Positions 1-63,249 of a stretch of 64,000 nucleotides of DNA are shown one piece after another (the first letter of the stretch is position 1; the number at the start of each line of letters is the position of its first letter). This DNA is from Haliotis rubra (Eukaryota). The stretch lies in NCBI RefSeq assembly GCF_003918875.1, contig NW_025766525.1:566865-630864 (forward strand). The letters run 5' to 3'. The position numbers and the translations under genes are program-made. The notes beneath the pieces were generated by a model, which was not told the origin of the DNA, searched no databases, and saw nothing but the letters and a program-made list of their open reading frames with translations.

Positions 1-324
1 CTCCACCACCCCCTCTTGGACATCATGCAGCCCCACGTCCCCCTCCAGGACTAGCTCCTCCTCCACCTCCCACTTCTAGCCATCATGAAGCCCCGCCTCC
101 ACCACCTCCCGCTCGTGGACTTTATGCAGTCCTCCCTCCACCATTTCCTCTAGCATTACGTCAGGCAACCCCACCTCTGTCACACCGAAGAGGTGTCGAA
201 AATCACATTCCTCCACCTCCCCCAGATGTCTCCAGGATGTCTCCTCCTTCACAAGTTGATGAAGACAAAAGATCAGGAAGATCAAGAAAATCAACAAGTA
301 GAAGCAGAGATCGTGATTTAGCAG
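1..324 (+). CDS. Partial exon running in from upstream of the window. It encodes a Pro-rich then Arg/Ser-rich segment (PPPPLGHHAAPRPPPGLAPPPPPTSS...DEDKRSGRSRKSTSRSRDRDLAG) and ends at the donor gcaG|gtaaga.
   Basis: The open frame starts at position 3. A strong GTAAGA donor lies at 325. The exon ends in phase 1, which fits the phase of the acceptor at 3781. The minus-strand ORF at 76-297 is the antisense artefact. Confidence 0.45.
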
Positions 325-519
325 GTAAGATAAGAAAATCTGATTTTCAGTGTCAACAGTTTTACAAATCTTGGCATAGAGAGATACCAGGGGTCTTTTT
401 CACAAGTTGATTTTAATCTTAAGCCCCAGATATAACAACATACGACTATTAGCATTATGATGGCCACACGAGCTCTGTTTTAACAATGACTTTTGATTTG
501 CTGTTGACAACAGTATTTG

Positions 520-1512
520 GTAGAGTTGTTCATGCACTGTCAATGCCAATGTTTGATAGGGTCGTTGATGCACCTTCCACACCAGTGTTTGATAGGGTCG
601 TTGATGCACCTACCACTCCAGTGTTTGATAGGGTCGTTGATGCACCTTCCACTCCAGTGTTTGATAGGGTCTTGATGCACCTTCCACACCAGTGTTTGAT
701 AGGGTCGTTGATGCACCTTCCACACCAGTGTTTGATAGGGTCGTTGATGCACCTTCCACACCAGTGTTTGATAGGGTTGTTGATGCACCTTCCACACCAG
801 TGTTTGATAGGGTCGTTGATGCACCTTCCACTCCAGTGTTTGATAGGGTCGTTGATGCACCTTCCACTCGAGTGTTTGATAGGGTCGTTGATGCACCTTC
901 CACTCGAGTGTTTCACAGGGTCATTGATGCACCTTCCACACCAGTGTTTGATAGGGTCGTTGATGCACCTTCCACACCAGTGTTTGATAGGGTTGTTGAT
1001 GCACCTTCCACACCAGTGTTTGATAGGGTCATTGATGCACCTACCACTCCAGTGTTTGATAGGGTCGTTGATGCACCTTCCCCTCCAGTGTTTGATAGGG
1101 TCGTTGATGCACCTTCCACACCAGTGTTTGATAGGGTCGTTGATGTACCTTCCACACCAGTGTTTGATAGGGTCGTTGATGCACCTTCCACTCCAGTGTT
1201 TGATAGGGTCGTTGATGCACCTTCCACAGCAGTGTTTGATAGGGTCGTTGATGCACCTCCCACACCAGAGTTTGATAGGGTCGTTGATGCATTTTCCACG
1301 TCAGTGTTTGATAGGGTCGTTGATGTACCTACCACAGCAGTGTTTGATAGGGTCGTTGATGCACCTTCCACTCCAGTGTTTGATAGGGTCGTTGATGCAC
1401 CTTCCACACCAGTGTTTGATAGGGTCGTTGATGCACCTTCCACACCAGTGTATGACAGGGTCATTGATGCACCTTCCACACCAGTGTTTGATAGGGTCAT
1501 TGATGCTCCGTC
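520..1512. repeat. 36-bp minisatellite (unit tgtttgatagggtcgttgatgcaccttccacaccag), about 27 copies, in the putative intron 1 of gene A.
   Basis: Direct reading shows a 36-bp period. The 12-aa periodic ORFs on both strands (PVFDRVVDAPST) are repeat artefacts. Confidence 0.9.
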
Positions 1513-1639
1513 AATGGAGTGTTTGGTAAGGTTGACTATGAAAAAACACCGTAGTCAAAGTGACCAAGTAATTTTCTGGGATATTAAAGTTCATGTGTGC
1601 ATGTGCTCATTATAACATTTCATTATTTGGTCATCTTCT

Positions 1640-2752
1640 TCCACATACCACATACTGTCTCCAGTACCCCATGCTTGTCAGGTCACACCTGTCTCCAGTA
1701 CCCCATGCTTGTCAGGTCACACCTGTCTCCAGTACCACATACTTGTCAGGTCACACCTGTCTCCAGTACCCCATACTTGTCAGGTCACACCTGTCTCCAG
1801 TACCACATACTTGTCAGGTCACACCTGTCTCCAGTACCCCATGCTTGTCAGGTCACACCTGTCTCCAGTACCCCATGCTTGTCAGGTCACACCTGTCTTC
1901 AGTACCCCATGCTTGTCAGGTCACACCTGTCTCCAGTACCCCATACTTGTCAGGTCACACCTGTCTTCAGTACCCCATGCTTGTCCAGGTCACACCTGTC
2001 TCCAGTACCCCATGCTTGTCAGGTCACACCTGTCTCCAGTACCACATACTTGTCAGGTCACACCTGTCTCCAGTACCCCATGCTTGTCAGGTCACACCTG
2101 TCTCCAGTACCCCATGCTTGTCAGGTCACACCTGTCTCCAGTACCACATGCTTGTCAGGTCACACCTGTCTCCAGTACCCCATGCTTGTCAGGTCACACC
2201 TGTCTCCAGTACCCCATGCTTGTCAGGTCACACCTGTCTCCAGTACCCCATGCTTGTCAGGTCACACCTGTCTCCAGTACCCCATGCTTGTCAGGTCACA
2301 CCTGTCTCCAGTACCTCATGCTTGTCAGGTCACACCTGTCTCCAGTACCTCATGCTTGTCAGGTCACACCTGTCTCCAGTACCCCATGCTTGTCAGGTCA
2401 CACCTGTCTCCAGTACCCCATACTTGTCAGGTCACACCTGTCTCCAGTACCCCATGCTTTTCAGGTCACACCTGTCTCCAGTACCCCATACTTGTCAGGT
2501 CACACCTGTCTCCAGTACCCCATACTTGTCAGGTCACACCTGTCTCCAGTACCCCATGCTTGTCAGGTCACACCTGTCTCCAGTACTCCATACTTGTCAG
2601 GTCACACCTGTCTCCAGTACCCCATGCTTGTCAGGTCACACCTGTCTCCAGTACCCCATGCTTGTCAGGTCACACCTGTCTTCAGTACCCCATGCTTGTC
2701 AGGTTACATCTGTCTCCAGGAGCTTGTCAGGTTACATCTGTCTCTAGTACCC
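1640..2752. repeat. 34-bp minisatellite (unit caggtcacacctgtctccagtaccccatgcttgt), about 32 copies.
   Basis: The period is 34 bp, not a multiple of 3. All three + frames stay open and rotate through the array, which marks this as a satellite artefact rather than coding sequence. Confidence 0.9.
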
Positions 2753-3000
2753 CATGTGAGTCGAGCTAGGAAGTACATTTGTTACCCAAATGGTGAAACA
2801 TAACCAGTGTCATATATATCATATGTGCATATGTGTACATATCACTTTTGCCTAGCAACCGTTGTTTCTGTGTTTCGTTGTGTGTGACATCATTAAATAA
2901 TTGAACTTGATTTAATTTACAGGGCAGTCACACTTGCTTATGGTGTTTTGCTGCATACATTTACATGAATAAAATGATAATAAAGAAAGTATTACACTCA

Positions 3001-3120
3001 CAAGTGTGTCATACGACTTATATGAAACTCATGCAAAATTGTGTATTGCCCTCTTTCACGCTTGGACAATGCAACATATATTTACACACTTGTTTCATTT
3101 AAGTCGTATGACACACTTGC
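3001..3120. repeat. Inverted-repeat hairpin: 28-bp arms (caagtgtgtcatacgacttatatgaaac / gtttcatttaagtcgtatgacacacttg) around a loop of about 56 bp.
   Basis: The arms match at 27 of 28 positions as reverse complements. Confidence 0.7.
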
Positions 3121-3780
3121 TTGTGTAATAATCTCTATCTATGTACTTGTCATCAGTATCCATGTTTACATTTTAATGTTTCTGTTTCTAAAGTGGGAAA
3201 CTCCTATTTGACAGATGGAGCTATTGAATGTACCACCCATAATCTTTACCACTGTGAATCTTTATCCCATTACTTAATATTTACCTTGCCACAGACTTCA
3301 CAAATTTTATAGTGTTATATAATAATAGAGTAATGTAACATTTAATCTATAATAATTATGTATTATGATATATACATTTAACTAACACTTGGTTAATATT
3401 TCTTATTTTACAAAAGTTTGATCATGAATCTTGAATGTAAATATGTTTACCTGAGTGATCTGTCACTCTGTTGTTGCTTAGTGTTCAGACTTTGTTTATC
3501 ATTCTGTCACTGAATTTATGATACAGCATTGGCATCCTGTCATGGCAAAATATTATATTGCAGCCATTTTTGTAAACAAAATAGTAAAGTGCATACAGTG
3601 TAAGGTGTGATGAGTTGATAGTTGTATATTTAATGACATTGCTGTAAGAAATGCTGTATCCATGTCAACTACTGATAATTATCCTTGTTATCGCGATTGT
3701 CCTCATGGTGTAAGGACATTCCATGAATAGTTTGGCAGCCGTCACAGCCTTATAATACCCTGGCGGCTATGTTTCTACAG

Positions 3781-5643
3781 GTGTGGAAGAGGAAGGGAGG
3801 ACATTTCGCTCCAAGAGTGCATCTCTGTTAACAGCAAGAGACCAGGCAGAGGAAGATCTGCTTGGAATGGATGTGGAAATGGCTTCCTCTGTTCATCCTC
3901 CTTCCTCGGTTGCAGGACATGCAACCATTCTACCACAAGGAGAAGTCATTCAAACTGGTATGGCGTTCTACCCAACATCTGCTTCAACGACTTTCTCGTC
4001 TGGGCCAGTAGGGAAATTTAAACATGCTGAAAAATCCTCTTTTGGATCCGGATTTGGTAGTTCAGTGCTACCTGCTTCACAAACAATCCAAGCAGACAGA
4101 CAAGTGGCGACACCTTTTTCAACGGGTTTCTCATTTGGGGCAGTAGATATGTCTAAACATGCTGAAAAATCATCTTTTGGATCTAGATTTGGTAGTTCAG
4201 TGCTACCTGCTTCACAAACTATCCAAGCAGACAGACAAGTGGCGACACCTTCTTCAACGGAGTTTTCATTTGGGGCAGTAGATATGTCTAAACATGCTGA
4301 AAAATCATCTTTTGGATCTGGATTTGGTAGTTCAGTGCTACCTGCTTCACAAACTATCCAAGCAGACAGACAAGTGGCGACACCTTCTTCAACGAGTTTC
4401 TCATTGGGGGCAGTAGATATGTCTAAACATGCTGAAAAACCATCTTTTGGATCTGGATTTGGTAGTTCAGTGCTACCTGCTTCACAAACTATCCAAGCAG
4501 ACAGACAAGTGGCGACACCTTCTTCAACGAGTTTCTCATTGGGGGCAGTAGATATGTCTAAACATGCTGAAAAACCATCTTTTGGATCTGGATTTGGTTG
4601 TAATGTACAGATGCCATTTCACACAGACATCATGAAGCACAATCTGCCAGGATTCCAGGATTCACAGAGCTTCATGTCATCTCTTTCATCAGATGTCATG
4701 CAGCAGCAGCAACAACAACAGCCTCCAGTGAAATCTAATTCCCGGTTTGTAAACAAGCATGCAGATGAACAACTGTATCAGAGTAGTACATTTGGCATGC
4801 AACAACAACAACAGCAACAACAGGCATATCCTTCTGAGGAAAGGAGGCCCCTGTTTGGACAAAGCTATACAAAGGAACAAACATATCAGAGTGGTATGTT
4901 TGGAATGCAAGAGCAACAGCAGCAGCAACAAAAGAGCCCTCCACAACAGATACCCTTTGGTGGACAGCCACTATCATTGGAAGGAGGAAGAGGAGGAGGA
5001 TTTGGAGGACTATCTCGTTTCAATCAGGAATCTTTTAGTGGACAGTCGCTGTCATTTGGAGAAGGGGGACTTGGAGGAGATGGTGTAGGATTCGGAGGAC
5101 TATCTACGTCCCCATCAGACACCTTTTAGTGGACAGTCGCTGTCATTTGGAGGAGCGGGACTTGGAGGAGATGGTGTAGGATTTGGAGGAGCTTTCTCTG
5201 GGAGTCAGATGACACAGGGTTTTACTGCAGGCAAGAGGTCAGAAAAGACTGAAGTAACTCCAGTCAAGTTTTTCAGAGATTGGGAAGTACCAGAGAAACC
5301 AACTACTGGATTTGTTAATCAGAGTGGAATATTCCAGGGGTCTGACCCTTGCATCACCATGTTTCCTACGTTGTCCACTGACCAGGTGATGACTGAACCT
5401 CTAGCTGAGCCGACAAGCAATAAATTCACTCAGGGAGGCTACGGAGGAAAGATGCCATTCAGCTTCCAATCTGGATCTAGCAGTTTGAAGTATGGTGGCA
5501 CCATGGGGATTGTTTCAGGGGATGTGACAAGAAGAGCAACACCACTAGAACTTGGGGGTCATGTGACAGGTGCTGCAGCAGCTCACTATAGGAACCCCTT
5601 ACCTCAGGGCAACATCCAGATGGTCCTCCAGCTGCAGCATCAG
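3781..5643 (+). CDS. Long internal exon of gene A. It carries 5 x 135-bp near-identical coding repeats (KHAEKSSFGSGFGSSVLPASQTIQADRQVATP.STSFS.GAVDMS), poly-Q tracts and Gly-rich GFGG/LGG repeats. A frameshift near 5105-5130 breaks the frame. The exon ends at the donor CAG|gtgagt (5643/5644).
   Basis: The acceptor is ttctacag|gt at 3780/3781. The frame is open 3783-5129, then the +1 frame is open from 5101 to the donor at 5643. The frameshift lies inside a duplicated unit of about 93 bp (5031-5123 vs 5124-5200) that carries a 1-bp length difference. Exon phases at both ends match the neighbouring exons. Confidence 0.6.
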
Positions 5644-5902
5644 GTGAGTGGGAGTACTAACACTTGTCCTTCACTATCCTCTAGTAAATACCATAGAGAC
5701 ATTACAAAAACTTCACCGGACTCTGGTTCAAGTGCTTCAGGTAGCTATTCAATCTGTTTTCTGGAACCAGTAGACTCCCCCCCAAAATGAACCAGAATTT
5801 GTTCTGGACTAAGAGTAATCCCAAATAGAGCAGATGTTATATAACGTAATGTGTCATGTGTATTATGTTTCTCGTGTTCTGTATGATGATGTCTGTTGTC
5901 AG

Positions 5903-6002
5903 GATGGGTCATGGAGATTCTGTAGTGAGCTTGACACAACTCTCTGCATCAGGAGCCTTGACTACAGAGAGATGTTGATGATGGCGGGGCTTCGGTCTCT
6001 AG
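5903..6002 (+). CDS. Exon of gene A (DGSWRFCSELDTTLCIRSLDYREMLMMAGLRSL + G). The acceptor is tgtcag| and the donor is ctaG|gtaatg.
   Basis: Entry is in phase 0, matching the preceding exon. Exit is in phase 1, matching the next exon at 9101. Paralogue B has an equivalent exon at 37513-37612 with about 50% aa identity and the same phases. Confidence 0.7.
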
Positions 6003-6054
6003 GTAATGGTTTCCTCTTACAGAAAACAGTCAAATTTGTAAAACTGATCACTCA

Positions 6055-8495
6055 GTACAATATCACTCTGCTAGTTCATAGTGTGTGTGTTAGAACAGGG
6101 AGGAGATCCTGATATTACTCTGCTAGTTCATAGTGTGTGTGTTAGAACAGGGAGGAGATCCTGATATTACTCTGCTAGTTCATAGTGTGTGTATTAGAAC
6201 AGGGAGGAGAGCCTGATATTACTCTGCTAGTTCATAGTGTGTGTGTTAGAACAGGGAGGAGAGCCTGATATTACTCTGCTAGTTCATAGTGTGTGTGTTA
6301 GAACAGGGAAGAGAGCCTGATATTACTCTGCTAGTTCATAGTGTGTGTGTTAAACAGGGAAGAGAGCCTGATATTACTCTGCTAGTTCATAGTGTGTGTG
6401 TTAGAACAGGGAGGAGAGCCTGATATTACTCTGCTAGTTCATAGTGTGTGTGTTAGAACAGGGAGGAGAGCCTGATATTACTCTGCTAGTTCATAGTATG
6501 TGTGTTAGAACAGGGAGGAGAGCCTGATATTACTCTGCTAGTTCATAGTGTGTGTGTTAGAACAGGGGAGAGAGAGCCTGATATTACTCTGCTAGTTCAT
6601 AGTGTGTGTGTGTTAGAACAGGGAAGAGAGCCTGATATTACTCTGCTAGTTCATAGTGTGTGTGTTAGAACAGGGAGGAGAGCCTGATATTACTCTGCTA
6701 GTTCATAGTATGTGTGTTAGAACAGGGAGGAGAGCCTGATATTACTCTGCTAGTTCATAGTGTGTGTGTTAGAACAGGAAGAGAGCCTGATATTACTCTG
6801 CTAGTTCATAGTGTGTGTGTGTTAGAACAGGGAGGAGAGCCTGATATTACTCTGTTAGTTCATAGTGTGTGTGTTAGAACAGGGAGGAGAGCCTGATATT
6901 ACTCTGCTAGTTCATAGTGTGTGTGTTAGAACAGGGAGAGGGAGAGCCTGATATTACTCTGCTAGTTCATAGTGTGTGTGTTAGAACAGGGAGGAGAGCC
7001 TGATATTACTCTGCTAGTTCATAGTGTGTGTGTGTTAGAACAGGGAGAGAGAGCCTGATATTACTCTGCTAGTTCATAGGGAGGAGAGACTGTGTGTTAG
7101 TGTGTGTGTTAGGGAGGGGAGAGCCTGATATTACTCTGCTAGTTCATAGTGTGTGTGTTAGAACAGGGAAGAGAGCCTGATATTACTCTGCTAGTTCATA
7201 GTGTGTGTGTTAGAACAGGGAGGAGAGCCTGATATTACTCTGCTAGTTCATAGTGTGTGTGTTAGAACAGGGAGGAGAGCCTGATATTACTCTGCTAGTT
7301 CATAGTGTGTGTGTTAGAACAGGGAGGAGAGCCTGATATTACTCTGCTAGTTCATAGTGTGTGTGTTAGAACAGGGAGGAGAGCCTGATATTACTCTGCT
7401 AGTTCATAGTGTGTGTGTTAGAACAGGGAGGAGAGCCTGATATTACTCTGCTAGTTCATAGTGTGTGTGTGTTAGAACAGGGAGGAGAGCCTGATATTAC
7501 TCTGCTAGTTCATAGTGTGTGTGTTAGAACAGGGAGGAGAGCCTGATATTACTCTGCTAGTTCATAGTGTGTGTGTTAGAACAGGGAGGAGAGCCTGATA
7601 TTACTCTGCTAGTTCATAGTGTGTGTGTTAGAACAGGGAGGAGAGCCTGATATTACTCTGCTAGTTCATAGTGTGTGTGTTAGAACAGGGAGGAGAGCCT
7701 GATATTACTCTGCTAGTTCATAGTGTGTGTGTTAGAACAGGGAGGGAGAGCCTGATATTACTCTGCTAGTTCATAGTGTGTGTGTTAGAACAGGGAGGGG
7801 AGAGCCTGATATTACTCTGCTAGTTCATAGTGTGTGTGTTAGAACAGGGGAGAGAGAGCCTGATATTACTCTGCTAGAACAGGGAGGAGAGCCATGCTAG
7901 TTCATAGTGTGTGTGTTAGAACAGGGAGGAGAGCCTGATATTACTCTGCTAGTTCATAGTGTGTGTGTTAGAACAGGGAGGAGAGCCTGATATTACTCTG
8001 CTAGTTCATAGTGTGTGTGTTAGAACAGGGAGGAGAGCCTGATATTACTCTGCTAGTTCATAGTGTGTGTGTGTGTGTGTTAGAACAGGGAGGAGAGCCT
8101 GATATTACTCTGCTAGTTCATAGTGTGTGTGTTAGAACAGGGAGAGAGAGCCTGATATTACTCTGCTAGTTCATAGTGTGTGTGTTAGAACAGGGAGGAG
8201 AGCCTGATATTACTGCTGTTCATAGTGTGTTGTTAGAACAGGGAGGAGATAGTGGTTCATGTGTGTGTTAGAACAGGGCTAGAGAGCCTGATATTACTCT
8301 GCTAGTTCATAGTGTGTGTGTGTTAGAACAGGGAAGAGAGCCTGATATTACTCTGCTAGTTCATAGTGTGTGTGTTAGAACAGGGAAGAGAGCCTGATAT
8401 TACTCTGCTAGTTCATAGTGTGTGTGTTAGAACAGGGAGGAGAGCCTGATATTACTCTGCTAGTTCATAGTGTGTGTGTTAGAACAGGGAGGAGA
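6055..8495. repeat. 52-bp minisatellite (unit cctgatattactctgctagttcatagtgtgtgtgttagaacagggaggagag), about 46 copies, filling the intron between the gene A exons at 6002 and 9101.
   Basis: Direct reading shows a 52-bp period, with variants in the (gt)n and gggag(g)agag segments. Confidence 0.9.
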
Positions 8496-8797
8496 TCCTG
8501 AAGCCATGCATGTCAGAGACATATCCCATGGCTTGTGTGGAACCCACAAGCAGGGGAAGGTACTGGCATGACAGTCTGGTCTTCCTTCCAAACTGGAATA
8601 CTGTTTTTGGTATTTCTAAAACACTTAATTACTCATGCACATTCAAGGACACTTTGTCTTTAGATATGTTGCCATTCCCTCTTTATACTTGGTTCTGACA
8701 AGGTGTCATACCACTGATTCCCATAAGCATGTAGACAGTAGCTGATTGTGTTATTTCAGCTTCTGTATGCTCAACACTATCTTAGTCAATATGGAAC

Positions 8798-8960
8798 AAG
8801 TTTTTATGGATAACAACTTCTTTATTTCTTGAGTGCGACGTTTCGATACAGATTCTTGTACTGTTGTCAAGCAAGAATGTGACTCTTGCTTGACAACAGT
8901 ACAAGAATCTGTATCAAACGTCGTGACTCACGAAATAAAGAAGTTGTTATCCATAAAAAC
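8798..8960. repeat. Long near-perfect palindrome. The arms are about 75 bp (ttttatggataacaacttctttatttcttgag...gtcaagcaag / cttgcttgac...ctcacgaaataaagaagttgttatccataaaa) around a short central loop.
   Basis: The reverse complement of the left arm matches the right arm with few mismatches. It sits in the gene A intron just upstream of the last exon. Confidence 0.8.
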
Positions 8961-9100
8961 CTGTTCCATATTGTACGTCTCAACTTCTAAAATGCCACTC
9001 AAACAAACTATCTTAGTCGGTTGGATTTCTATAAGTTTGGGTAATGATTACATGACCAAGTAAAAAATCTTTCTGAAATTCAGTCTCCAATGTTTTCCAG

Positions 9101-9519
9101 GAACAACTGTCGCAGAAGAAATCCAACGTCTAGTTTCCACCTTGCTGGCTATTCTTGTCATCTTGGAGGCTCTCTGCCCAGAGTTATTTCCCCTGACAGA
9201 TGACAGTTTGCACAAAGACGGTGAAAAGGATTTGGGCAAAATTCTGTCTAGTAAAATTGAGTTAGCAGTCATATCTTGGAAAATAGACGTGGCTGAGATG
9301 TTTTTAGCATTACATCAAGGAATCAAGTTTTGCACTGCGCTGGATGAAAAACACCCACTTGTGTGTAGATCCTTGGAGCTGGCTGATGATTGGCTGTCTG
9401 CAGTGGCGAAGATGTTGGGTGATTTGGGAGAAAGTCAGAAGACAAAGGCGGTGGGAAAAGTCTTTCATCTTCTGTTTCCAGAACTTGAAAAAAACTTTGG
9501 AGAGGAAAAACAAACTTAG
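9101..9519 (+). CDS. Terminal coding exon of gene A (..TTVAEEIQRLVSTLLAILVILEALCPELFPLTDDSLHKDGEKDLGKILSSKIELAVISWKIDVAEMFLALHQGIKFCTALDEKHPLVCRSLELADDWLSAVAKMLGDLGESQKTKAVGKVFHLLFPELEKNFGEEKQT*).
   Basis: The acceptor is tgttttccag| at 9100. The entry phase completes the codon G(gga) carried from the exon ending at 6002. The stop codon is at 9517-9519. A paralogous exon with the shared ILEALCPELFPL block lies at 46036-46289. Confidence 0.7.
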
Positions 9520-10728: not shown

Positions 10729-11070
10729 TTTATGGTGCCTGTTCTTATTTTGTTTTATCATCTTAACATTCCAGCGTATTGACTGTGATACACGTAGCTA
10801 GTGAGGAAATTACATTTATTTTGTTTGAATGACATGAGGTTGCATTATGTTTCTCACTTAATACAATTAAGCAGACCTTCATGATCTATCTCTGACCCTT
10901 ACTTGACCTTTGTGCAGTGTTAAACAGGAGTGAATAAATATATTTACTACATATGTTTGTCGTTCATAGAGTTGCTTGTCATGTTGTACCATGTTTTAAG
11001 TAATATGTGAGATTTCCTGTAAATACAAATTCTTCTCTGTATTTGTCAGTGTAGAGTTCTCCCTGGTGAA

Positions 11071-14000
11071 CCTGAGGACGTCCCAGGTCGCATCACAATG
11101 ACATTTAGTCCTCCCCACCATTACACATAAACCTGAGGACGTCCCAGGTCGCATCACAATGACATTTAGTCCTCCCCACCATTACACATAAACCTGAGGA
11201 CATCCCAGGTCGCATCAGAATGACATTTAGTCCTCCCCACTATTACACATAAACCTGAGGACATCCCAGGTCGCATCAGAATGACATTTAGTCCTCCCCA
11301 CCATTACACATAAACCTGAGGACATACCAGGTCGCATCAGAATGACATTTAGTCCTCCCCACCTTTACACATAAACCTGAGGACATCCCAGGTCACATTA
11401 AAATGACCTTAAGTCCTCCCTACCATTACACATAAACCTGAGGACGTCCCAGGTCGCATCAGAATGACATTTAGTCCTCCCCACCATTGCACAGAAACCT
11501 GAGGACATCCCAGGTCGCATCAGAATGACATTTAGTCCTCCCCACCTTTACACATAAACCTGAGGACATGCCAGGTCGCATCAGAATGACATTTAGTCCT
11601 CCCCACCTTTACACATAAACCTGAGGACGTCCCAGGTCACATCAGAATGACATTTAGTCCTCCCTACCATTACACATAAACCTGAGGACATCCCAGGTCA
11701 CATCAGAATGACCTTTTGTCCACCCTACCATTGCACATAAATCTCAGGACATGCCAGGTCACATCAGAATGACATTTTGTCCTCCCTACCATTGCACATA
11801 AACCTGAGGACATGCCAGGTCGCATCAGAATGACATTTAGTCCTCCCCACCATTGCACAGAAACCTGAGGACATGCCAGGTCACATCAGAATGACATTTA
11901 GTCCTCCCCACCTTTACACATAAACCTGAGGACATCCCAGGTCGCATCAGAATGACATTTAGTCCTCCCCACCTTTACACATAAACCTGAGGACGTCCCA
12001 GGTCGCATCAGAATGATCTTTTGTCCTCCCTACCATTGCACATAAACCTGAGGGCGTCCCAGGTCGCATCAGAAGGACCTTTTTGTCCTCCCTACCATTG
12101 CACATAAATCTCAGGACATCCCAGGTCACATCAGAATGACCTTTTGTCCACCCTACCATGTGCACATAAATCTCAGGACATGCCAGGTCACATCAGAATG
12201 ACCTTTTGTCCTCCCTACCATTGCACATAAACCTGAGGGACATCCCAGGTCGCATCAGAATGACATTTAGTCCTCCCCACCTTTACACATAAACCTGAGG
12301 ACATCCCAGGTCGCATCAGAATGACATTTAGTCCTCCCCACCTTTACACATAAACCTGAGGACGTCCCAGGTCGCATCAGAATGACCTTTTGTCCTCCCT
12401 ACCATTGCACATAAACCTGAGGACGTCCCAGGTCGCATCAGAAGGACCTTTTGTCCTCCCTACCATTGCACATAAACCTGAGGGACATCCCAGGTCACAT
12501 CAGAATGACCTTTTGTCCACCCTACCATTGCACATAAATCTCAGGACATGCCAGGTCACATCAGAATGACCTTTTGTCCTCCCTACCATTGCACTGGAAC
12601 CTGAGGGACATCCCAGGTCACATCAGAATGACCTTTTGTCCACCCTACCATTGCACATAAATCTCAGGACATGCCAGGTCACATCAGAATGACCTTTTGT
12701 CCACCCTACCATTGCACATAAATCTCAGGACATCCCAGGTCACATTAAAATGACCTTAAGTCCTCCCTACCATTACACATAAACCTGAGGACATGCCAGG
12801 TCACATCAGAATGACATTTTGTCCTCCCTACCATTGCACATAAACCTGAGGACATGACAGGTCACATCAGAATGACATTTTGTCCTCCCTACCATTACAC
12901 ATAAACCTGAACCTGAGGACATCCCAGGTCACATCAGAATGACCTTTTGTCCACCCTACCATTGCACATAAATCTCAGGACATGCCAGGTCACATCAGAA
13001 TGACCTTTTGTCCTCCCTACCATTGCACTGAAACCTGAGGACATGCCAGGTCACATCAGAATGACCTTTTGTCCACCCTACCATTGCACATAAATCTCAG
13101 GACATGCCAGGTCACATCAGAATGACCTTTTGTCCACCCTACCATTGCACATAAATCTCAGGACATCCCAGGTCACATTAAAATGACCTTAAGTCCTCCC
13201 TACCATTACACATAAACCTGAGGACATGCCAGGTCACATCAGAATGACATTTAGTCCTCCCTACCATTGCACATAAACCTGAGGACATGCCAGGTCACAT
13301 CAGAATGACATTTTGTCCTCCCTACCATTACACATAAACCTGAACCTGAGGACATCCCAGGTCGCATCAGAATGGCATTTTGTCGTCCCTACCATTACAC
13401 ATAAATCTGAGGACGTCCCAGGTCACATCAGATTGACGTTTTGTCCTCCCTACCATTACACATAAATCTGAGGACATGCCAGGTCACATCAGATTGACGT
13501 TTTGTCCTCCCTACCATTACACATAAACCTGAACCTGAGGACATCCCAGGTCGCATCAGAATGACCTTTTGTCCTCCCTACCATTACACATAAATCTGAG
13601 GACATGCCAGGTCACAGCAGAATGACCGTTTGTCCTCCCCACCATTGCAGAAAAATCTGAGGACATCCCAGGTCACATCAGAATGACGTTTAGTCCTCCC
13701 CATCATTACACATAAACCTGAGGACATGCCAGGTCACAGCAGAATGACCTTTAGTTCTCACTACCATTACACATAAATCTGAGGACATCCCAGGTCACAT
13801 CAGAATGACCTTTTGTCCTCCCCACGATTACAGAAAAATCTGAGGACATCCCAGGTCACATCAGAATGACGTTTAGTCCTCCCCACCATTACACATAAAC
13901 CTGAGGACATCCCAGGTCACATCAGAATGACCTTTTGTCCTCCCTACCATTACACATAAACCTGAGGACATCCCAGGTCGCCTCAGAATGACCTTTTGTC

Positions 14001-18068: not shown

Positions 18069-19019
18069 ATGAAATTAGCTGAACTAATGAAGAACTAGCA
18101 AAACCCTGAAAGCAGCCTATAATAACGAGATTTCTCAGGCTCCACGGCACAAGTATCAGACCAATTGCATGAACATCTCCTTGCAGCTGAGTGCATTGAC
18201 GAGGTGTGTATCACAGTATACCATGAATACAGACATTGTAAAATATTTAGTGTTTGACTAACTTATTTCTGTTTTAGAATATGTTGTAATGTTATAAATT
18301 ATATTAATATGAGATTACAGTTTTATGATCTGCCTGTTGAGAAAGAATTATTTTTGATAGTTTGATAAATCATGAAATATTTACAGCTGTATTGTTGGTG
18401 AACCTTTGTTGATTGGTTCTGGATAGTTAGCTAGAATGTTTGCTGTGTCTCAGTTTCCATGAAAACACTGCTGACATTTGTTTTCCACTGTTTCTGTCTT
18501 GTTCTGTCGTGTTGTTCATCATGTGGGTTGTACTGAAATTATTGTATCTTGGAATAAATTATGGTTAGAAGAGTTTGTTTTATTGCCGAAGTGTGACAAA
18601 GCATTGCCGTTGCCAAAATATGTGGTGTTTACAGTCTGTTTGGGTCAAAATGATATCGACGAATCACAAATGATGTGACGTCACAAGTGCATGTGATTCC
18701 CGCCCCCTGAGGCTGTTCCTGCAACTGTTACTTTACTCACAGAAAACCAAAACAAAATCTTGACAGTTTGTTAAGTAACATTTTCATTTTGGAGACAAAA
18801 TATGAATCTTTTTCATTACATTCTGCGTTGAAATGAATGTTTTATCATTAACGGATTGTGATTCATAGGTATGATTTTGACCCAACAGACTGTAACTAAG
18901 GGTAGTTCCAAGCAGTGGTGAATATACAAGACACAGTGAAAAGGAATGTATGTTACCAAATCTGATGCTGTTGAAGTCTCTTAGTTAAGGATTACATGAT
19001 CCACAGCAAGTGACATGCC

Positions 19020-22000
19020 CAGAGGGGTAGAAATATTGTGTGGAGACCTCTCTTGGTGTGGAATGTACACAGACCTCTCTTGGTGTGGAATGTCTGCAGA
19101 CCACACTTGGTGTGGAATGTGTAGAGACCACTCTTGGTGTTGAATGTGTAGAGAACACTCTTGTTGTCGAATGTGTAGAGACCACTCTTGTTGTGGAATG
19201 TGTGGACACCACTCTTGGTGTGGAATGTGTAGAGACCCCTCTTGTAGTGGAATGTGTAGAGACCACTCTTGTTGTGGAATGTGTGGAGACCACTCTTATT
19301 GTGGAATGTGTAGAGACCACTCTTGTTGTGGAATGTGTAGAGACCACTCTTGTGGAATTCGCACAGACCACTCTTGTTGTGGAATTCGTAGAGACCACTC
19401 TTGTTGTGTAATGTGTAGAGACCACTCTTGTTGTGGAATTTGTAGAGACCTCTCTTGTTGTGGAATGTGCACGGACCACACTTGGTGTGGAATGTGTAGA
19501 GACCACTCTTGTTGTGGAATGTGTAGAGACCACTCTTGCTGTGGAATGTGTAGAGACCACTCTTGTTGTAGAATATGTAGAGACCACTATTGTTGTGGAA
19601 TGTGCACAGACCACTCTTGTTCTGGAATGTGCACAGACCACTGTTGTTGTAGAATGTGTAGAGACCACTCTTGTTGTGGAATGTGTGAATACCACTCTTG
19701 GTGTGGAATGTGTAGAGACCACTCTCGGTGTAGAATGTTTTGAGACCACTCTTGTTGTGGAATGTGCACAGACCACTCTTGTTGTGGAATGTGTAGAGAC
19801 CACTCTTGTTGTGGAATGTGTAGAGACCACTCTCGGTGTAGAATGTTTTGAGACCACTCTTGTTGTGGAATGTGCACAGACCACTCTTGTTGTGGAATGT
19901 GTGGAGACCACTCTAGTTGTGGAATGTGTGTAGACCACTCTTGTTGTGGAATGTGTGGAGACCACTCTTGTTGTGGAATGTGTAGAGACCACTCTTGTTG
20001 TGGAATGTAGAGTGTAGAATGTGTAGAGACCACTCTTGGTGTGGAATGTGAAGACCACCACTGTTGTTGTGAGAACTCTTGGTGTAGAATATGAAGAGAC
20101 CACTCTTGTTGTGGAATGTGTAGAGACCACTCTTGGTGTAGAATATGTAGAGACCACTCTTGTTGTGGAATGTGTAGAGACCACTCTTGTAGAATATGTA
20201 GAGACCACTCTTGTTGTGGAATGTGCACAGACCACTCTTGTTGTCGAATGTGTAGAGACCACTCTTGTTTTCGAATGTGTAGAGACCACTCTTGTTGTGG
20301 AATTGTAGAGACCACTCTTGTTGTGGAATGTGTGGAGACCCCTCTTGTTGTGGAATGTGTAGAGACCACTCTTGTGGAATGTGTAGAGACCACTCTTGTT
20401 GTGGAATGTGTGGAGACCACTCTTGTTGTGGAATGTGTAGAGACCACTCTTGTTGTGGAATGTGTAGAGACCACTCTTGTTGTGGAATGTGTAGAGACCA
20501 CTCTTGTTGTGGAATGTGTAGAGACCACTCTTGTTGTGGAATGTGTAGAGACCACTCTTGTTGTGAATATGAAGAGACCACTCCTTGTTGTGGAATGTGT
20601 AGAGACCACTCTTGTGTGTGTAGAAGACCACTCTTGTTGTGGAATGTGAGACCACTCTTGTTGTGGAATATGTAGAGACCACTCTTGTTGTGGAATGTGT
20701 AGAGACCACTCTTGTTGTGGAATGTGTAGAGACCACTCTTGTGGAATGTGTAGAGACCACCACTCTTGTTGTGGAATGTGTGGAGACCACTCTTGTTGTG
20801 GAATGTGTAGAGACCACTCTTGTTGTGGAATGTGTGCTCATGTTGTGGAATGTGTAGAGACCACTCTTGAATGTGTGTGGAATGTGTAGAGACCACTCTT
20901 GTTGTGGAATGTGTAGAGACCACTCTTGTTGGGGAATGTGTGAGACTCTTGTTGTGGAATGTGTAGAGACCACTCTTGGTGTAGAATATGTAGAGACCAC
21001 TCTTGTTGTGGAATGTGTAGAGACCACTCTTGTTGTGGAATGTGTGTAGTGTAGAATATGTAGAGACCAGGAATGTGAAGAGACCACTCTTGTTGTGGAA
21101 TGTGTAGAGACCACTCTTGTTGTAGAATGTGTAGAGACCACTCTTGTTGTCGAATGTGTAGAGACCACTCTTGTTGTGGAATGTGTAGAGACCACTCTTG
21201 TTGTGGAATGTGTAGAGACCACTCTTGTTGTGGAATGTGTAGAGACCCCTCTTGTTGTGGAATGTGTAGAGACCACTCTTGTGGAATGTGTAGAGACCAC
21301 TCTTGGTGTGGAATGTGTGGAGACCCCTTTTGTTGTGGAATGTGTAGAGACCACTCTTGTTGGGGAATGTGTAGAGACCACTCTTGTTGTGGAATGTGTA
21401 GAGACCGCTCATGTTGTGGAATGTGTAGAGACCACTCTTGGTGTAGAATGTGTAGAGACCACTCTTGTTGTGGAATGTGTAGAGACCGCTCATGTTGTGG
21501 AATGTGTAGAGACCACTCTTGGTGTAGAATGTGTAGAGACCACTCTTGTTGTGGAATGTGTAGAAACCACTCTTGTAGTGGAATGTGTGGAGACCACTCT
21601 TGTTGTGGAATGTGTAGAGACCACTCTTGTTGTGGAATGTGTAGAGACCACTCTTGTTGTGGAATGTGTAGAGACCACTCTTGTTGTGGAATGTGTAGAG
21701 ACCACTCTTGTTGTGGAATGTGTAGAGACAACTCTTGTTGTGGAATGTGTAGAGGCCACTCTTGTTGTGGAATGTGTGAAGACCACTCTTGTTGTGGAAT
21801 GTGTGGAGACCACTCTAATTGTAGAATGTGTAGAGACCACTCTTGGTGTGGAATGTGTGGAGACCACTCTGTGGAATGTGTGGAGACCACTGTTGTGGAA
21901 TGTGTGGAGACCACTCTTGTTGTGCAATGTGTAGAGACCACTCTCGGTGTAGAATGTTTTGAGACCACTCTTGTTGTGGAATGTGCACAGACCACTCTTG

Positions 22001-22225
22001 TTGTGGAATGTGTAGAGACCACTCTTGTTGTGGAATGTGTGGAGACCACTCTTGTTGTGGAATGTGTAGAGACCACTCGTGTTGTGGAATGTGTAGAGAC
22101 CACTCTTGTTGTGGAATGTGTGAAGACCACTCTTGTTGTGGAATGTGTGGAGACCACTCTAGTTGTAGAATGCGTAGAGACCACTCTTGTTGTGGAATGT
22201 GCACAGACCACTCTTGTTATATCAT
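19020..22225. repeat. 27-bp satellite (unit gagaccactcttgttgtggaatgtgta), about 120 copies.
   Basis: The period is 27 bp, a multiple of 3. This produces very long spurious ORFs on both strands, including the 798-aa and 526-aa minus ORFs with VETTLVVEC / STHSTTRVV periodicity. Confidence 0.9.
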
Positions 22226-22424
22226 TCTCTCCTGAATAGTCCATCAGCTTGGACTGTGTAATAAGTAAACAACAGGGCCCTCCTGCTGTCTAATTTTTCT
22301 AATTGTTCTAATTGTTCTAACCAGCCGTGTGTATTTTGTTCTGCTCTCACATACAGTTGGTTTCCTCGTGTTTTTTCGGTATTAATCACAAATCCTTGAC
22401 TGTTGTTAATCTATTTCGTGCATA

Positions 22425-23137: not shown

Positions 23138-25290
23138 AGTTTTCATCAAATGAGCTGCAATCACGAACCAAGGCTGTGTATGAAGCATCACCCAGCTACT
23201 CACCGACTTCACCCAGGTACTCACCGACTTCACCCAGGTACTCACCGACTTCACCCAGCTACACACCGACTTCACCCAGCTACACACCGACTTCACCAAG
23301 GTACTCACCTACTACTCCCAGGTACTCACCAACTGCTCCCAGGTACTCACCGACTTTGCCAAGGTACTCACCGACTTCACCCAGTTACACACCGACTTCA
23401 CCCAGGTACTCACCAACTGCTCCCAGGTACTCACCGACTTCACCAAGGTACTCACCGACTACTTACAGGTACTCACTGATTTCACCCAGCTACACACCAA
23501 CTTCACACAGCTACACACCAACTTCACCGAGCTACTCAATGATTTCACCCAGCTACACACCAACTTCACCGAGCTACACACCAACTACACCCAGCCACAC
23601 ACCAACTTCACCCAGCTACACACTAATTTCACACAACTACACACTAACTTCACCCAGCTACAGACCAACTTCACACAGCTACACACTAACTTCACCCACA
23701 GAAAATCTAACTTCACCCAGCTACACACTAATGTCACACAACTACACACCAACTTCACCCTGCTACACACTGACTTCACACCAACTTCACCCAGCTACAC
23801 ACTAACTTCTCCCAGCTACACACCAACTTCACACTAACTTCACACAGCTACACACTAACTTCTCCCAGCTACACACTATCTTCACCTATCTACACACCAA
23901 CTTCACCCAGCTACACACCAACTTCACCCAGCTACACACTAACTTCACCTATCTACACACCAACTTCACCCAGCTACACACCAACTTCACCCAGCTACAC
24001 ACCAACTTCACCCAGCTACACACCAACTTCACCCAGCTACAAGCCAACTTCACCCAGCTACACACCAACTTCACCCAGCTACAAGCCAACTTTACCCAGC
24101 TACACACCAACTTCACCCAGCTACACACCAACTTCACCCAGCTACACACCAACTTCACCCAGCTACACACCAACTTCACCCAGCTACAAGCCAACTTCAC
24201 CCAGCTACACACCAACTTCACCTATCTACACACCAACTTCACCCAGCTACAAGCCAACTTCACCCAGCTACACACTAACTTCACCTATCTACACACCAAC
24301 TTCTCCCAGCTACACACCAAGTGCACCTATCTACACACCAACTTCACACAGCTACACGCCAACTGCACCTATCTACACACCAACTTCACCTATCTACACG
24401 TAAACTTCATCCAGCTAGTCACCGACTTCACCTATCTACACACCAACTTCATCCAGCTACACACCAACTTCACCTATCTACATGCCAACTTCACCCTGCT
24501 ACACACCAACTTCACCTATCTACACGCCAACTTCATCCAGCTAGTCACCGACTTCACCTATCTACACACCAACTTCATCCAGCTACACACTAACTTCACC
24601 TATCTACACGCCAGCTTCATCCAGCTAGTCACCGACTTCACCCAGCTACACACCAACTTCACCCAGCTACACACCAACTTCACCTATCTACACACCAAAT
24701 TCACCCAGTTACACACAACTTCACCTATCTATACACCAACTTCACCCAGCTACACGCCAACTTCACCCAGCTACACACCAACTTCACCTATCTACAAGCC
24801 AACTTCACCTATCTACACACCAACTTCACCTATCTACATGCCAACTTCATCCAGCTACACGCCAACTTCACCCAGCTACACACCAACTTCTCCCAGCTAC
24901 ACACCAACTTCACCTTTCTACACACCAACTTCACCTATCTACACACCAACTTCACCTATCTACAAGCCAACTTCACCTATCTACATGCCAACTTCATCCA
25001 GCTACACACCAACTTCACCTATCTACACGCCAACTTCATCCAGCTACACGCCAACTTCACCCAGCTACACACCAACTTCAACCAGCTACACACCATCTTC
25101 ACCCAGCTACACACCAACTTCAACCAGCTACACACCAACTTCTCCCAGCTACACACCAACTTCACCCAGCTACACGCCAACTTCAAACAGCTACACACCA
25201 ACTTCTCCCAGCTACACACCAACTTCACCCAGCTACACACCAACTTCACCCAGCTACACGCCAACTTCACCCAGCTAGTCACCAACTACT
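23138..25290 (+). repeat. 21-bp tandem array whose + frame encodes RNA polymerase II CTD-like heptads (YSPTSPR / YTPTSPS / YTPTSPI...). The proximal about 300 bp is open and codon-diverse. The distal part is homogenised at the DNA level and interrupted by stops.
   Basis: ORF 23107-23805 reads ...[42 protein letters not shown]... A possible acceptor is gacacag| at 23137. Units such as cagctacacaccaacttcacc repeat perfectly at 23950-24200. A second block lies at 26870-28095. Confidence 0.75.
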
Positions 25291-25479
25291 CTCAGGTACT
25301 CACATCTACTCCCAGCTATAAACCGACTTGACCCAGCTACTCACTGACTGAGCTACCCACCGACTTCACCCACTACTCCCAGGTACTCACCGACTTCACC
25401 AAGGTACTCACCAACTACTCCCAGCACCGACTTCACACAGCTACTCAGCAAGACCACAGAAGCACTCACAATCTCCCCA

Positions 25480-28095: not shown

Positions 28096-28299
28096 CTCTC
28101 AGGTACTCACATCTACTCCCAGCTATAAACCGACTTGACCCAGCTACTCACTGACTGAGCTACCCACCGACTTCACCCACTACTCCCAGGTACTCACCGA
28201 CTTCACCAAGGTACTCACCAACTACTCCCAGCACCGACTTCACACAGCTACTCAGCAAGACCACAGAAGCACTCACAATCTCCCCTATGTTTCTCACTG

Positions 28300-32215: not shown

Positions 32216-32595
32216 TCCACCCTCCCCTTACCTATGACTTTTACCCCGTGTATAGCAGTATAAAGGCAAGCATCACATCCGGTGTATGTGTCCAACATTA
32301 AGCCAGTATGAAGCTGTAGTACACTTTTCTGACTTTTCAGTAGCTTGGAAAGTCAGTTGATTTCATTGTTGATAAGGAAATATAGGGCTTCCTCAGCTGA
32401 CAACTGACAAGGATAGTTAGTTGTTGGTGTGAGGACATTTAGGGCTATTGCAAGAGATGATGGTTGTCATCCATCCACTAGTTTGCTGTTTAGCCAGAAA
32501 ACATAATCAAAGTAATGATTTTAAGGAAGGCTAGTGTTTAGGTCCACCACGAGTCACTATTCGGAGGGAGCTTACAGCCCTTCCCTGGCTTCCAC

Positions 32596-35045: not shown

Positions 35046-35384
35046 GTAGGTCGACCAGCTGTATGTCATCCAAATCTCTTGCACAGTTATAAATTTAGGC
35101 AGTCTTGTAACTATTTATGTTTTGTGACACAGGATATTTTTATTTATCATCCAAAACTGTGTTCCACAGGAGATATCGCTTGTGTGAGATCAAACGATAT
35201 CTCCTAGGAGATATCGTTTTGACAGTAGATTTTGTACAATGCCCTGACAATGCTATGACGTCATGTACTTGATGACGTCACAATGCTATGACATCGCTGC
35301 ACTGCAAGTCTAATGGCAGTACCATGTTCAGAGATGTACATATTTCATTGAAAATTAATGAAGTGTGATTTTGGATGATAAATA

Positions 35385-63240: not shown

Positions 63241-63249
63241 TGTATGTAC

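What the first reader, a model, noticed from the sequence alone, without database searches (positions are those of the whole stretch)
1..9519. Modular low-complexity gene (gene A) with a conserved C-terminal module of unknown function
Four exons with mutually consistent splice phases give this architecture, in order:
- a Pro-rich/RS-like N-terminus;
- five near-identical 45-aa repeats containing FGSGFG;
- poly-Q tracts;
- Gly-rich GFGG repeats;
- a C-terminal module (DGSWRFCSELDTTLCIRSLDYREMLMMAGLRSLG-TTVAEEIQRLVSTLLAILVILEALCPELFPL...).

I cannot assign the module to a known domain. The FG/Q-rich composition suggests a phase-separating or nucleoporin-like protein.
Basis: partly seen in the sequence, partly recalled or inferred. 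Interest (0 to 1): 0.6.

Follow-up and report, generated by a model that had tools for sequence, protein, structure and literature searches.

The report
Abalone disordered protein with vault-docking domain

Summary
The window is Haliotis rubra. The exons and all listed motifs are real. Two of the three splice joins match the NCBI protein LOC124279140 exactly.

Exon 2 is not one open frame. An extra base near 5106 shifts the frame and gives a TAG at 5127-5129. NCBI therefore annotates only 317 aa, starting at Met 5209.

The C-terminal module is assignable: it is the PARP4 MVP-interaction (MINT / MVP-ID) domain, Pfam PF26156.
- phmmer to human PARP4 residues 1576-1705: E=5e-6.
- AlphaFold model: pLDDT 83.

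Closest relatives are mollusc proteins of 630-1280 aa. They are Pro/FG-rich (some with CTD-like heptads) with a C-terminal MINT and no PARP, VIT or vWA domains. True PARP4s from a chiton, a bivalve and a nemertean are more distant.

The last exon is under purifying selection (dN/dS 0.31). A tandem paralogue at 34.6-46.4 kb has a destroyed MINT.

Most likely function: the MINT domain docks the disordered protein to the vault inner wall. This is inferred. Only 1 of 4 human contact residues is conserved.

The 5' end lies outside the window, so a full PARP4 is not excluded. Known domain, little-studied architecture, moderate interest.

The parts
1..324 (+). Exon 1, cut by the window start. It encodes the Pro-rich and RS-like segment and is read from base 3. 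It ends in phase 1 at donor AG|GTAAGA.
   Evidence: 107 codons are open with no start codon. There are four runs of 4-6 prolines. The join to 3781 is inferred from canonical sites and phase only.
325..3780 (+). Intron 1. It holds a 36-nt minisatellite (507-1506, 27.8 copies) and a 34-nt minisatellite (1655-2756, 32.6 copies).
   Evidence: Tandem Repeats Finder. The 36-nt array loses its frame at a 1-nt deletion near 665, and 34 is not a multiple of 3, so neither array is coding.
3781..5126 (+). Exon 2, part upstream of the frameshift. It encodes five 45-aa FGSGFG repeats (DNA 3975-4598), three poly-Q tracts, and the first GFGG repeat.
   Evidence: The frame is open over 3783-5126 (448 codons). 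Repeat spacing is exactly 45 aa. TRF gives a 135-nt period, 4.6 copies, 94% matches.
5098..5129 (+). Frame-breaking lesion. One extra base near 5106, relative to the preceding 90-nt repeat copy, leads to the in-frame TAG at 5127-5129.
   Evidence: plus direct reading. Copy 1 reads GGACTATCT-CGTTTCAATCAGGAATCT. Copy 2 reads GGACTATCT-A-CGTCCCCATCAGACACCT. Removing one base restores a 900-aa ORF.
5089..5643 (+). Exon 2, part downstream of the frameshift. It encodes the second GFGG repeat, Met 5209 (start of the NCBI 317-aa protein), a Gly/Ser-rich linker, and the first MINT helix from about 5596. The donor is CAG|GTGAGT.
   Evidence: Frame 0 is open over 5089-5643. P0001 is identical from 5209 onward. 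AlphaFold confidence rises at residue ~20 of the model, which is nt 5596.
5903..6002 (+). Exon 3. It encodes the MINT motifs DGSW and GLRSLG. This includes the family-invariant Ser that corresponds to the human PARP4 S1614 contact with MVP.
   Evidence: with coordinates. The paralogue has an exon homologous in sequence and position at 37510-37614.
6003..9100 (+). Intron 3. It holds a 52-nt minisatellite (6060-8501) and a MITE-like nested palindrome (8787-8973).
   Evidence: Copies of the palindrome occur in the H. asinina locus L001.
9101..9519 (+). Exon 4. It encodes the rest of the MINT domain (to about 9412, including KHPLVCRSLELADDW), a ~35-aa extra C-terminal helix seen only in the abalone-type sequences (gene A, its relative P0002 and paralogue P0003), and the stop codon TAG at 9517-9519.
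   Evidence: dN/dS is 0.31 against the relative in Logan contig DRR299178. Fisher's exact test on synonymous versus non-synonymous changes gives p=1.8e-6.

Best explanation
Gene A is a Haliotis rubra member of a mollusc family of MINT-tailed disordered proteins. It has a long, intrinsically disordered Pro/FG/Q/Gly-rich region of at least 700 aa, followed at the extreme C-terminus by a PARP4-type MVP-interaction (MINT / MVP-ID, Pfam PF26156) helical domain.

Proposed mechanism: the MINT domain docks the protein onto the inner wall of the vault particle, as human PARP4 MINT binds repeats 3-5 of the major vault protein. The FG/Q-rich chain would then hang into the vault lumen as a tethered passenger or cargo-capturing matrix.

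Shown here:
- domain identity, fold and C-terminal position;
- family distribution;
- purifying selection on the domain;
- the exon structure, and that the public model uses two of the three joins.

Inferred:
- binding to abalone MVP, and any role of the disordered region;
- absence of PARP/VIT/vWA domains upstream of the window;
- that the single-base frameshift is an assembly error or a very recent change, not old decay.
For: Domain identity:
- phmmer of the 197-aa module against PDB sequences hits only human PARP4 residues 1576-1705, E=5.4e-6.
- A profile of 28 family modules hits PARP4 1563-1707, E=2.7e-42. The human MINT domain is residues 1562-1724 (PMC12280208).
- The identical NCBI protein carries a precomputed PF26156 hit. 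PF26156 is named PARP4_MVP-ID.

Fold:
- The AlphaFold2 model has pLDDT 82.7 and pTM 0.81 and is all-helical.
- Foldseek top hit is 9bw6_B, probability 1.00, target TM-score 0.69. The next hit has probability 0.09.

Family:
- The motifs LQxxDGxW, GLxSLG and HPxxxxxLELGxxW are all present. G64, S67, G69 and E161 are invariant across the family.
- An exhaustive HMMER search found 40 relatives. In every full-length relative with a single match the module ends within about 25 residues of the C-terminus.
- Among full-length relatives the best hits are Aplysia, Plakobranchus, Pinctada and one unnamed protein (E 5e-15 to 1e-12); Elysia, Littorina and Argopecten score 8e-10 to 1e-7, overlapping chiton PARP4. 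None of these has PARP, VIT or vWA domains.
- True PARP4s score lower, E 5e-8 to 7e-6.
- The module is also fused to an Hsp70 substrate-binding fragment, to a ubiquitin-like domain and to 14-3-3. This behaviour fits a portable targeting tag.

Selection and integrity:
- Last exon dN/dS is 0.31, p=1.8e-6.
- Both halves of exon 2 are still long open frames, P about 5e-12 and 2e-5. This argues against an old disabling lesion.

Partner present: gastropods have MVP genes, four in Aplysia (PMC9334734).
Against: - Only one of the four human MINT side chains that contact MVP is conserved. S1614 stays S. K1618 becomes T, Q1682 becomes K, and R1689 becomes S with an Arg one position earlier (contacts from PMC12280208).
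- The loop that is basic in human MINT is less basic here.
- PMC12280208 reports that the MVP residues that bind PARP4 are conserved only in vertebrates. The same interface cannot therefore be assumed in molluscs.
- As assembled, the long ORF is broken. NCBI annotates only a 317-aa product.
- The tandem paralogue is clearly damaged, so the locus may be decaying.
- The 5' end is outside the window, so an upstream PARP half is not excluded.
- Chiton PARP4 has an FG-rich linker before its MINT domain.
- No homologue of the N-terminal 549 aa was found, though that search saturated on low-complexity words.
Confidence: 0.55

Rival explanations
1. Gene A is the 3' half of the abalone PARP4 (vault PARP) orthologue. 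The BRCT, PARP catalytic, VIT and vWA exons would lie upstream of the window. The FG/Q-rich stretch would be the long disordered linker that precedes MINT in PARP4.
For: - Exon 1 is open from the first bases of the window with no start codon.
- Chiton PARP4 (P0017, 2150 aa) has an FG-rich linker that hits Nucleoporin_FG, between vWA and a C-terminal MINT.
- No other Haliotis PARP4 was retrieved in my searches.
Against: - The module is closer to several PARP-less mollusc proteins (Aplysia, Plakobranchus, Pinctada: E 5e-15 to 1e-12) than to the PARP4s of chiton, bivalve and nemertean (5e-8 to 7e-6).
- RefSeq models with their own start codons in Aplysia (903 aa), Littorina (780-877 aa) and Argopecten (1280 aa) have Pro/FG-rich regions plus MINT and no enzymatic domains.
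- The order Pro-rich, then FG-rich, then MINT matches Aplysia P0004.
- Gene A's nearest relative is the small tandem paralogue (88% bootstrap).
- The deep nodes of the tree are unresolved, so this rival is weakened but not excluded.
Confidence: 0.2
2. The frameshift is real, and gene A is a decaying or truncated gene. Either it is a pseudogene, or only the 317-aa C-terminal protein (linker plus MINT) is made from Met 5209. The FG/Q-rich ORF would then be an untranslated relic.
For: - The in-frame TAG at 5127-5129 follows an extra base that is not in a homopolymer.
- NCBI's model starts at 5209.
- The neighbouring paralogue has a 27-nt deletion of the invariant LELG motif plus a TGG>TGA change. 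Gene loss at this locus is therefore happening.
- Short stand-alone MINT proteins of 150-350 aa are common in teleosts.
Against: - The 448-codon ORF upstream of the frameshift, and the 107 open codons of exon 1, contain no other stop (P about 5e-12). Any disabling event must be very recent.
- The lesion lies inside a 90/91-nt tandem repeat, where assembly polishing is least reliable. This is my own knowledge and was not tested.
- The MINT exon is under purifying selection.
Confidence: 0.3
3. It is a nucleoporin-like or generic phase-separating FG/Q protein. The C-terminal module would serve another purpose, and the protein would have nothing to do with vaults.
For: - There are 21 FG dipeptides and three poly-Q runs.
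- The Aplysia homologue is auto-named POM121.
- The MVP-contact residues are poorly conserved.
- PMC12280208 finds the PARP4-binding residues of MVP only in vertebrates.
Against: - There is no Nucleoporin_FG or any nucleoporin domain hit.
- The only folded domain is specifically MINT-like, with no other comparable PDB match by Foldseek.
- The automatic names POM121, Rpb1 and SRRM1 given to relatives follow low-complexity composition only.
Confidence: 0.1
4. The module is derived from a transposon.
For: None was found. The region is rich in repeats and transposable elements.
Against: - All relatives are PARP4 or MINT-tailed host proteins from molluscs, a nemertean, amphioxus and vertebrates.
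- Synteny with ASCC3 is conserved between two abalone species.
- The intron positions are shared between the two paralogues.
Confidence: 0.01

Closest known systems
Human PARP4 (vault PARP) MINT / MVP-ID domain: residues 1562-1724; PDB 9bw6, 9bw7, 11jf; Pfam PF26156
   Same: - It is a homologous helical domain at the extreme C-terminus.
- It shares the LQxxDGxW, G(L/I)xSLG and LELGxxW motifs.
- The Ser equivalent to S1614 is conserved.
- It is preceded by a long disordered linker.
   Different: - No BRCT, PARP, VIT or vWA domains are visible in the window.
- Sequence identity is only about 25-28%.
- K1618, Q1682 and R1689 are not conserved.
- There is an insertion of about 15 residues between the central helices.
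- There is an extra ~35-aa C-terminal helix shared only with abalone relatives.
Mollusc low-complexity MINT-tailed proteins: Aplysia XP_005096629.2 ('POM121'), Plakobranchus GFO43317.1 ('Rpb1'), Elysia GFR66341.1, Littorina XP_070191041, Argopecten XP_069141939 ('PARP4-like')
   Same: - The architecture and order match: poly-Pro, then FG/Gly-rich repeats, then C-terminal MINT.
- No enzymatic domains are present.
- Several (Aplysia, Plakobranchus, Pinctada) give the best sequence matches to the module among full-length proteins (30-38% identity).
   Different: - The low-complexity parts are not alignable.
- Several relatives carry YSPTSPA heptads. In this window heptads lie next to the paralogue (23-28 kb), not in gene A.
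- None of these proteins is characterised.
Mollusc and nemertean full-length PARP4: Liolophura XP_064611003.1, Potamilus KAK3593675.1, Tubulanus XP_074640441.1
   Same: They have a C-terminal MINT domain. The chiton protein has an FG-repeat linker before it.
   Different: They carry BRCT, PARP, VIT and vWA domains. Their MINT is more distant from gene A (E 5e-8 to 7e-6) than those of several PARP-less mollusc proteins (E down to 5e-15).
FG nucleoporins
   Same: FG dipeptides sit in a Ser/Gly/Gln-rich disordered region.
   Different: There is no nucleoporin family hit and no pore-anchoring domain. The anchor here is a vault-binding type domain.

Membership tests
PARP4 MVP-ID / MINT domain (Pfam PF26156) | Sequence match to the family model or to human PARP4 residues 1562-1724 | tested here: met
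   - A precomputed PF26156 hit lies on the identical protein P0001.
- phmmer gives E=5.4e-6 to PARP4 1576-1705.
- The family profile gives E=2.7e-42.
- The local Pfam copy lacks this model, so the empty results are uninformative.
PARP4 MVP-ID / MINT domain (Pfam PF26156) | Compact multi-helix fold as in PDB 9bw6 chain B | tested here: met
   - The AlphaFold2 model has pLDDT 82.7.
- Foldseek gives probability 1.00 and target TM-score 0.69.
PARP4 MVP-ID / MINT domain (Pfam PF26156) | Position at the extreme C-terminus of the protein | tested here: met
   The canonical domain ends about 35 residues before the stop codon. In all full-length relatives with a single match the module is C-terminal.
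PARP4 MVP-ID / MINT domain (Pfam PF26156) | Conservation of the human MVP-contact residues S1614, K1618, Q1682 and R1689 | tested here: inconclusive
   - Ser is conserved and invariant across the family.
- K becomes T, Q becomes K, and R becomes S with an adjacent Arg (contacts from PMC12280208).
PARP4 MVP-ID / MINT domain (Pfam PF26156) | Physical binding to MVP repeats 3-5 and packaging into vaults | not testable with these tools
   This needs biochemistry or vault proteomics.
PARP4 (vault PARP) orthologue | BRCT, PARP catalytic, VIT and vWA domains N-terminal to MINT | tested here: inconclusive
   None is present in the 900 aa encoded in the window. The gene runs off the 5' edge of the window, and the upstream sequence could not be fetched.
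FG nucleoporins | Nucleoporin_FG repeat model or a pore-anchoring domain | tested here: not met
   There is no PF13634 or other nucleoporin hit at E<=10. The chiton PARP4 linker does hit PF13634.
Transposon-derived protein | Match to transposase, reverse transcriptase or integrase families, or a multi-copy dispersed distribution | tested here: not met
   - There are no such hits.
- The relatives are host genes.
- The window holds only gene A's own exons and the tandem paralogue as module copies.

The most novel reading that the evidence does not exclude
Molluscs have split the vault-docking half of PARP4 from its enzymatic half and expanded it into a family of natural vault passengers. In this reading, FG/Q/Pro-rich disordered proteins (and fusions to Hsp70 substrate-binding, ubiquitin-like and 14-3-3 domains) are tethered by MINT to the vault wall. 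The vault lumen would then be filled with a nucleoporin-like FG matrix that captures or retains cargo. Gene A would be one such lumenal matrix protein.
Probability: 0.15. Interest if true: 0.75.

Novelty: new variant of a known kind. Interest (0 to 1): 0.4.

Why it matters
What the vault particle does is a long-standing open question. PARP4 is the only studied protein that carries a MINT domain.

The papers I could search treat MINT purely as a PARP4 feature. PMC12280208 even proposes that PARP4 came to occupy vaults only in 'higher order organisms'. The data here point the other way:
- The domain is present in molluscs, a nemertean and amphioxus.
- In gastropods and bivalves it is repeatedly attached to long FG/Pro-rich disordered regions or to other modules, without the enzyme.

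If these domains bind MVP, they name natural vault passengers and offer a testable handle on vault function.

For this particular gene the value is limited. The domain is already in Pfam, the protein is already in NCBI as 'uncharacterized', the 5' end is missing, and the ORF is interrupted as assembled.

Tried and rejected
- **Local Pfam scans.** Scans of the full protein and of the module found nothing relevant. The local library lacks PF26156, because even vertebrate PARP4 C-terminal fragments give no hit. These negatives are not evidence.
- **Upstream sequence.** Fetching the H. rubra contig through the exact protein failed, as it is not on record. I could not read upstream of the window.
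- **N-terminal homologues.** A search with the N-terminal 549 aa returned nothing. The candidate list saturated at 8000 low-complexity matches, so orthologues could not be used to test the frameshift.
- **Gene A orthologue in H. asinina.** The locus L001 holds the gene B orthologue and ASCC3 but no gene A within 10 kb upstream.
- **Small intron bypassing the frameshift.** A 97-nt GT..AG interval spanning one repeat unit would restore the frame. I rejected it by reading: the donor (G|GTGTAG) is weak and the acceptor is purine-rich with no pyrimidine tract.
- **Intronic minisatellites as coding repeats.** The 36-nt array loses its frame at a 1-nt deletion, and 34 and 52 are not multiples of 3.
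- **Phylogeny.** The neighbour-joining tree could not resolve whether the low-complexity type and PARP4-type MINT domains form separate clades. Deep bootstrap support is below 30%.
- **Other searches.** Rfam found nothing in the window.
Full report
**What is in the sequence**

The region is eukaryotic. The spliced translation of 5209-5643 + 5903-6002 + 9101-9519 is identical to the NCBI protein 'uncharacterized protein LOC124279140 [Haliotis rubra]' (317 aa). The window is therefore blacklip abalone.

All four proposed exons have canonical splice sites: AG|GTAAGA, CAG|GTGAGT and TAG|GTAATG as donors, with pyrimidine-rich CAG acceptors. The phases fit at each join. The listed features are real:
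- four poly-Pro runs and an RS-like stretch in exon 1;
- five repeats spaced exactly 45 aa apart, each with FGSGFG (one has FGSRFG);
- three poly-Q runs;
- GFGG repeats;
- 21 FG dipeptides in the first 700 aa.

The introns are filled with minisatellites of 36, 34 and 52 nt, plus a MITE-like palindrome. None of these is coding.

Exon 2 is not a single open frame. The frame inherited from exon 1 is open over 3783-5126 and ends at TAG 5127-5129. The frame that continues into exon 3 is open only from 5089.

The break lies inside a tandem repeat of 90 and 91 nt. Comparison of the two copies shows one extra base near 5106 (TCT-A-CGT). Deleting one base gives a continuous 900-aa product. NCBI's model avoids the problem by starting at Met 5209.

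Both sides of the break are long intact ORFs (P about 5e-12 and 2e-5 by chance). The lesion is therefore either an assembly error in a repeat or a very recent mutation. I could not decide between these.

The 324>3781 join is unverified. The gene also runs off the 5' edge of the window.

**Identity of the C-terminal module**

- phmmer of the module against all PDB sequences hits only human PARP4 residues 1576-1705 (E=5.4e-6). This lies within the MVP-interaction (MINT) domain, residues 1562-1724, whose complex with the vault shell was solved recently (PMC12280208).
- The identical NCBI protein carries a precomputed Pfam PF26156 hit. That family is named PARP4_MVP-ID.
- My own Pfam scans were empty only because the local library lacks that model.
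- An AlphaFold2 model built on a 28-sequence family alignment is confident (pLDDT 82.7, pTM 0.81) and all-helical.
- Its best PDB match by Foldseek is 9bw6_B, the PARP4 MINT chain (probability 1.00, target TM-score 0.69; next hit probability 0.09).
- The family motifs LQxxDGxW, GLxSLG and HPxxxxxLELGxxW are all present.
- The domain starts in the last ~45 nt of exon 2 (about 5596) and ends near 9412. An extra helix, shared only with abalone relatives, follows it.

**Relatives and architecture**

An exhaustive HMMER search found 40 relatives. In every full-length relative with a single match the module is at the extreme C-terminus. They fall into two architectures.

1. True PARP4 (BRCT, PARP, VIT, vWA ... 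MINT). These come from a chiton, a freshwater mussel and a nemertean. The chiton protein has an FG-repeat linker that hits Nucleoporin_FG.
2. Proteins of 630-1280 aa from gastropods and bivalves that are Pro-rich and FG-rich. They often carry YSPTSPA heptads, end in MINT, and have no enzymatic domain. Automatic annotation misnames them POM121, Rpb1 or SRRM1-like.

The module is also found fused to an Hsp70 substrate-binding fragment (Pinctada), to a ubiquitin-like domain, and to 14-3-3 (amphioxus). Teleosts have many short stand-alone MINT proteins.

Gene A's best full-length matches are of type 2: E 5e-15 to 1e-12 for Aplysia, Plakobranchus, Pinctada and one unnamed protein, against 5e-8 to 7e-6 for PARP4s; other type-2 proteins (Elysia, Littorina, Argopecten) score 8e-10 to 1e-7. 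Its order of segments matches Aplysia P0004. The deep nodes of a neighbour-joining tree are unresolved.

**Surroundings**

A tandem paralogue (gene B) lies at 34566-46412, with homologous exons around the module. It is the orthologue of H. asinina XP_067674270 ('PARP4-like'). The two abalone paralogues are sister sequences (88% bootstrap).

In H. rubra, gene B has lost 27 nt encoding PLICRSLEL, and its invariant Trp codon is now TGA. Its MINT domain is therefore destroyed.

Synteny with an ASCC3-type helicase on the minus strand is conserved between the two species.

**Constraint**

Against a related sequence in a Logan contig (run DRR299178, 74% aa identity), the last exon has dN 0.19 and dS 0.61, giving dN/dS 0.31. 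Fisher's exact test gives p=1.8e-6. The domain has been kept by selection.

**How it most likely works**

By homology, the MINT domain docks the protein to the inner wall of the vault shell, and the disordered FG/Q/Pro-rich chain extends into the lumen. Three observations support a portable docking tag:
- the strict C-terminal position;
- the variety of N-terminal partners;
- the established use of human MINT as a packaging tag (PMC12280208).

Gastropods have MVP genes (PMC9334734).

The evidence against is real:
- Only one of four human contact residues is conserved (S1614).
- PMC12280208 reports that the MVP residues binding PARP4 are conserved only in vertebrates.

Binding is therefore inferred, not shown. 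I put about 0.95 on the domain assignment and about 0.5 on vault docking.

**Rivals**

- Gene A is the 3' half of a full PARP4 (0.2).
- The frameshift is real, and only a 317-aa product or none is made (0.3). This is compatible with the domain assignment.
- Gene A is a nucleoporin-like protein unrelated to vaults (0.1).
- The module is transposon-derived (rejected).

**Novelty**

The domain, its structure and the Pfam family are known, and the protein is in NCBI as uncharacterised. None of my literature searches surfaced a paper on MINT outside PARP4; I did not open every listed paper. A MINT domain attached to an FG/Q-rich disordered protein without the enzyme is thus an unstudied variant of a known kind.

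Interest is moderate. It is tempered by the missing 5' end and the interrupted ORF.

Noticed in passing
window 34566-46412 (+): exons about 34566-35045, 37510-37614 and 46035-46412: This is a tandem paralogue (gene B) and the orthologue of H. asinina XP_067674270 'PARP4-like'. In H. rubra its last exon has a 27-nt in-frame deletion that removes PLICRSLEL, plus TGG>TGA in the invariant Trp codon. Its MINT domain is therefore destroyed and it is probably a pseudogene. Its last intron (8.4 kb) carries retroelement ORFs, including an RNase H domain at 39960-40700 on the minus strand.
   Followed up: partly
window 23188-32222 (+); H. asinina L001:5416-7392: These are very large 21-nt (7-codon) tandem arrays.
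- The unit TCACCCAGCTACACACCAACT encodes SPSYTPT, an RNA polymerase II CTD-like heptad. It has 106 copies with 0% indels at 23188-25425, and recurs at 26868-28232.
- A second 21-nt unit, CTTACTGACGTCCACCCACAT, is interleaved at 25570-26871 and 28378-32222.
- Aplysia, Plakobranchus and Elysia MINT-tailed proteins carry YSPTSPA heptads in the same polypeptide. The array may therefore be, or have been, coding sequence of gene B.
   Followed up: partly
window 8787-8973; H. asinina L001:22740-22836 and 24288-24407: This is a nested perfect-hairpin element in intron 3 of gene A. The outer arms are 48 nt (96% complementary) and the inner arms 35 nt (97%). Copies occur in another abalone genome, so it looks like a MITE family.
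   Followed up: partly
window 507-1506, 1655-2756, 6060-8501, 11069-12000+, 18985-22244, 57000-58500, 60404-63310: Minisatellite density is exceptional. The units include 36, 34, 52, 61 and 27 nt, and they fill most introns and intergenic DNA. Many arrays give long spurious ORFs in several frames.
   Followed up: no
window 55346-55681 (-) and about 63300-63422 (-): These are exons of an ASCC3/Brr2-type helicase (Sec63 Brl domain hits) on the minus strand. The same neighbour follows gene B in H. asinina, so synteny is conserved.
   Followed up: partly
window 49870-51665 (+): This is a LINE-type reverse transcriptase ORF (RVT_1, E=3e-24), lying just downstream of gene B.
   Followed up: no
   Followed up: no
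relatives P0008 (Pinctada), P0009, P0030 (amphioxus), and teleost hits: The MINT domain is also fused to an Hsp70 substrate-binding fragment, to a ubiquitin-like domain and to 14-3-3. In teleosts it occurs as many short stand-alone proteins of 150-350 aa. The domain may therefore tag a wider set of proteins than PARP4.
   Followed up: partly
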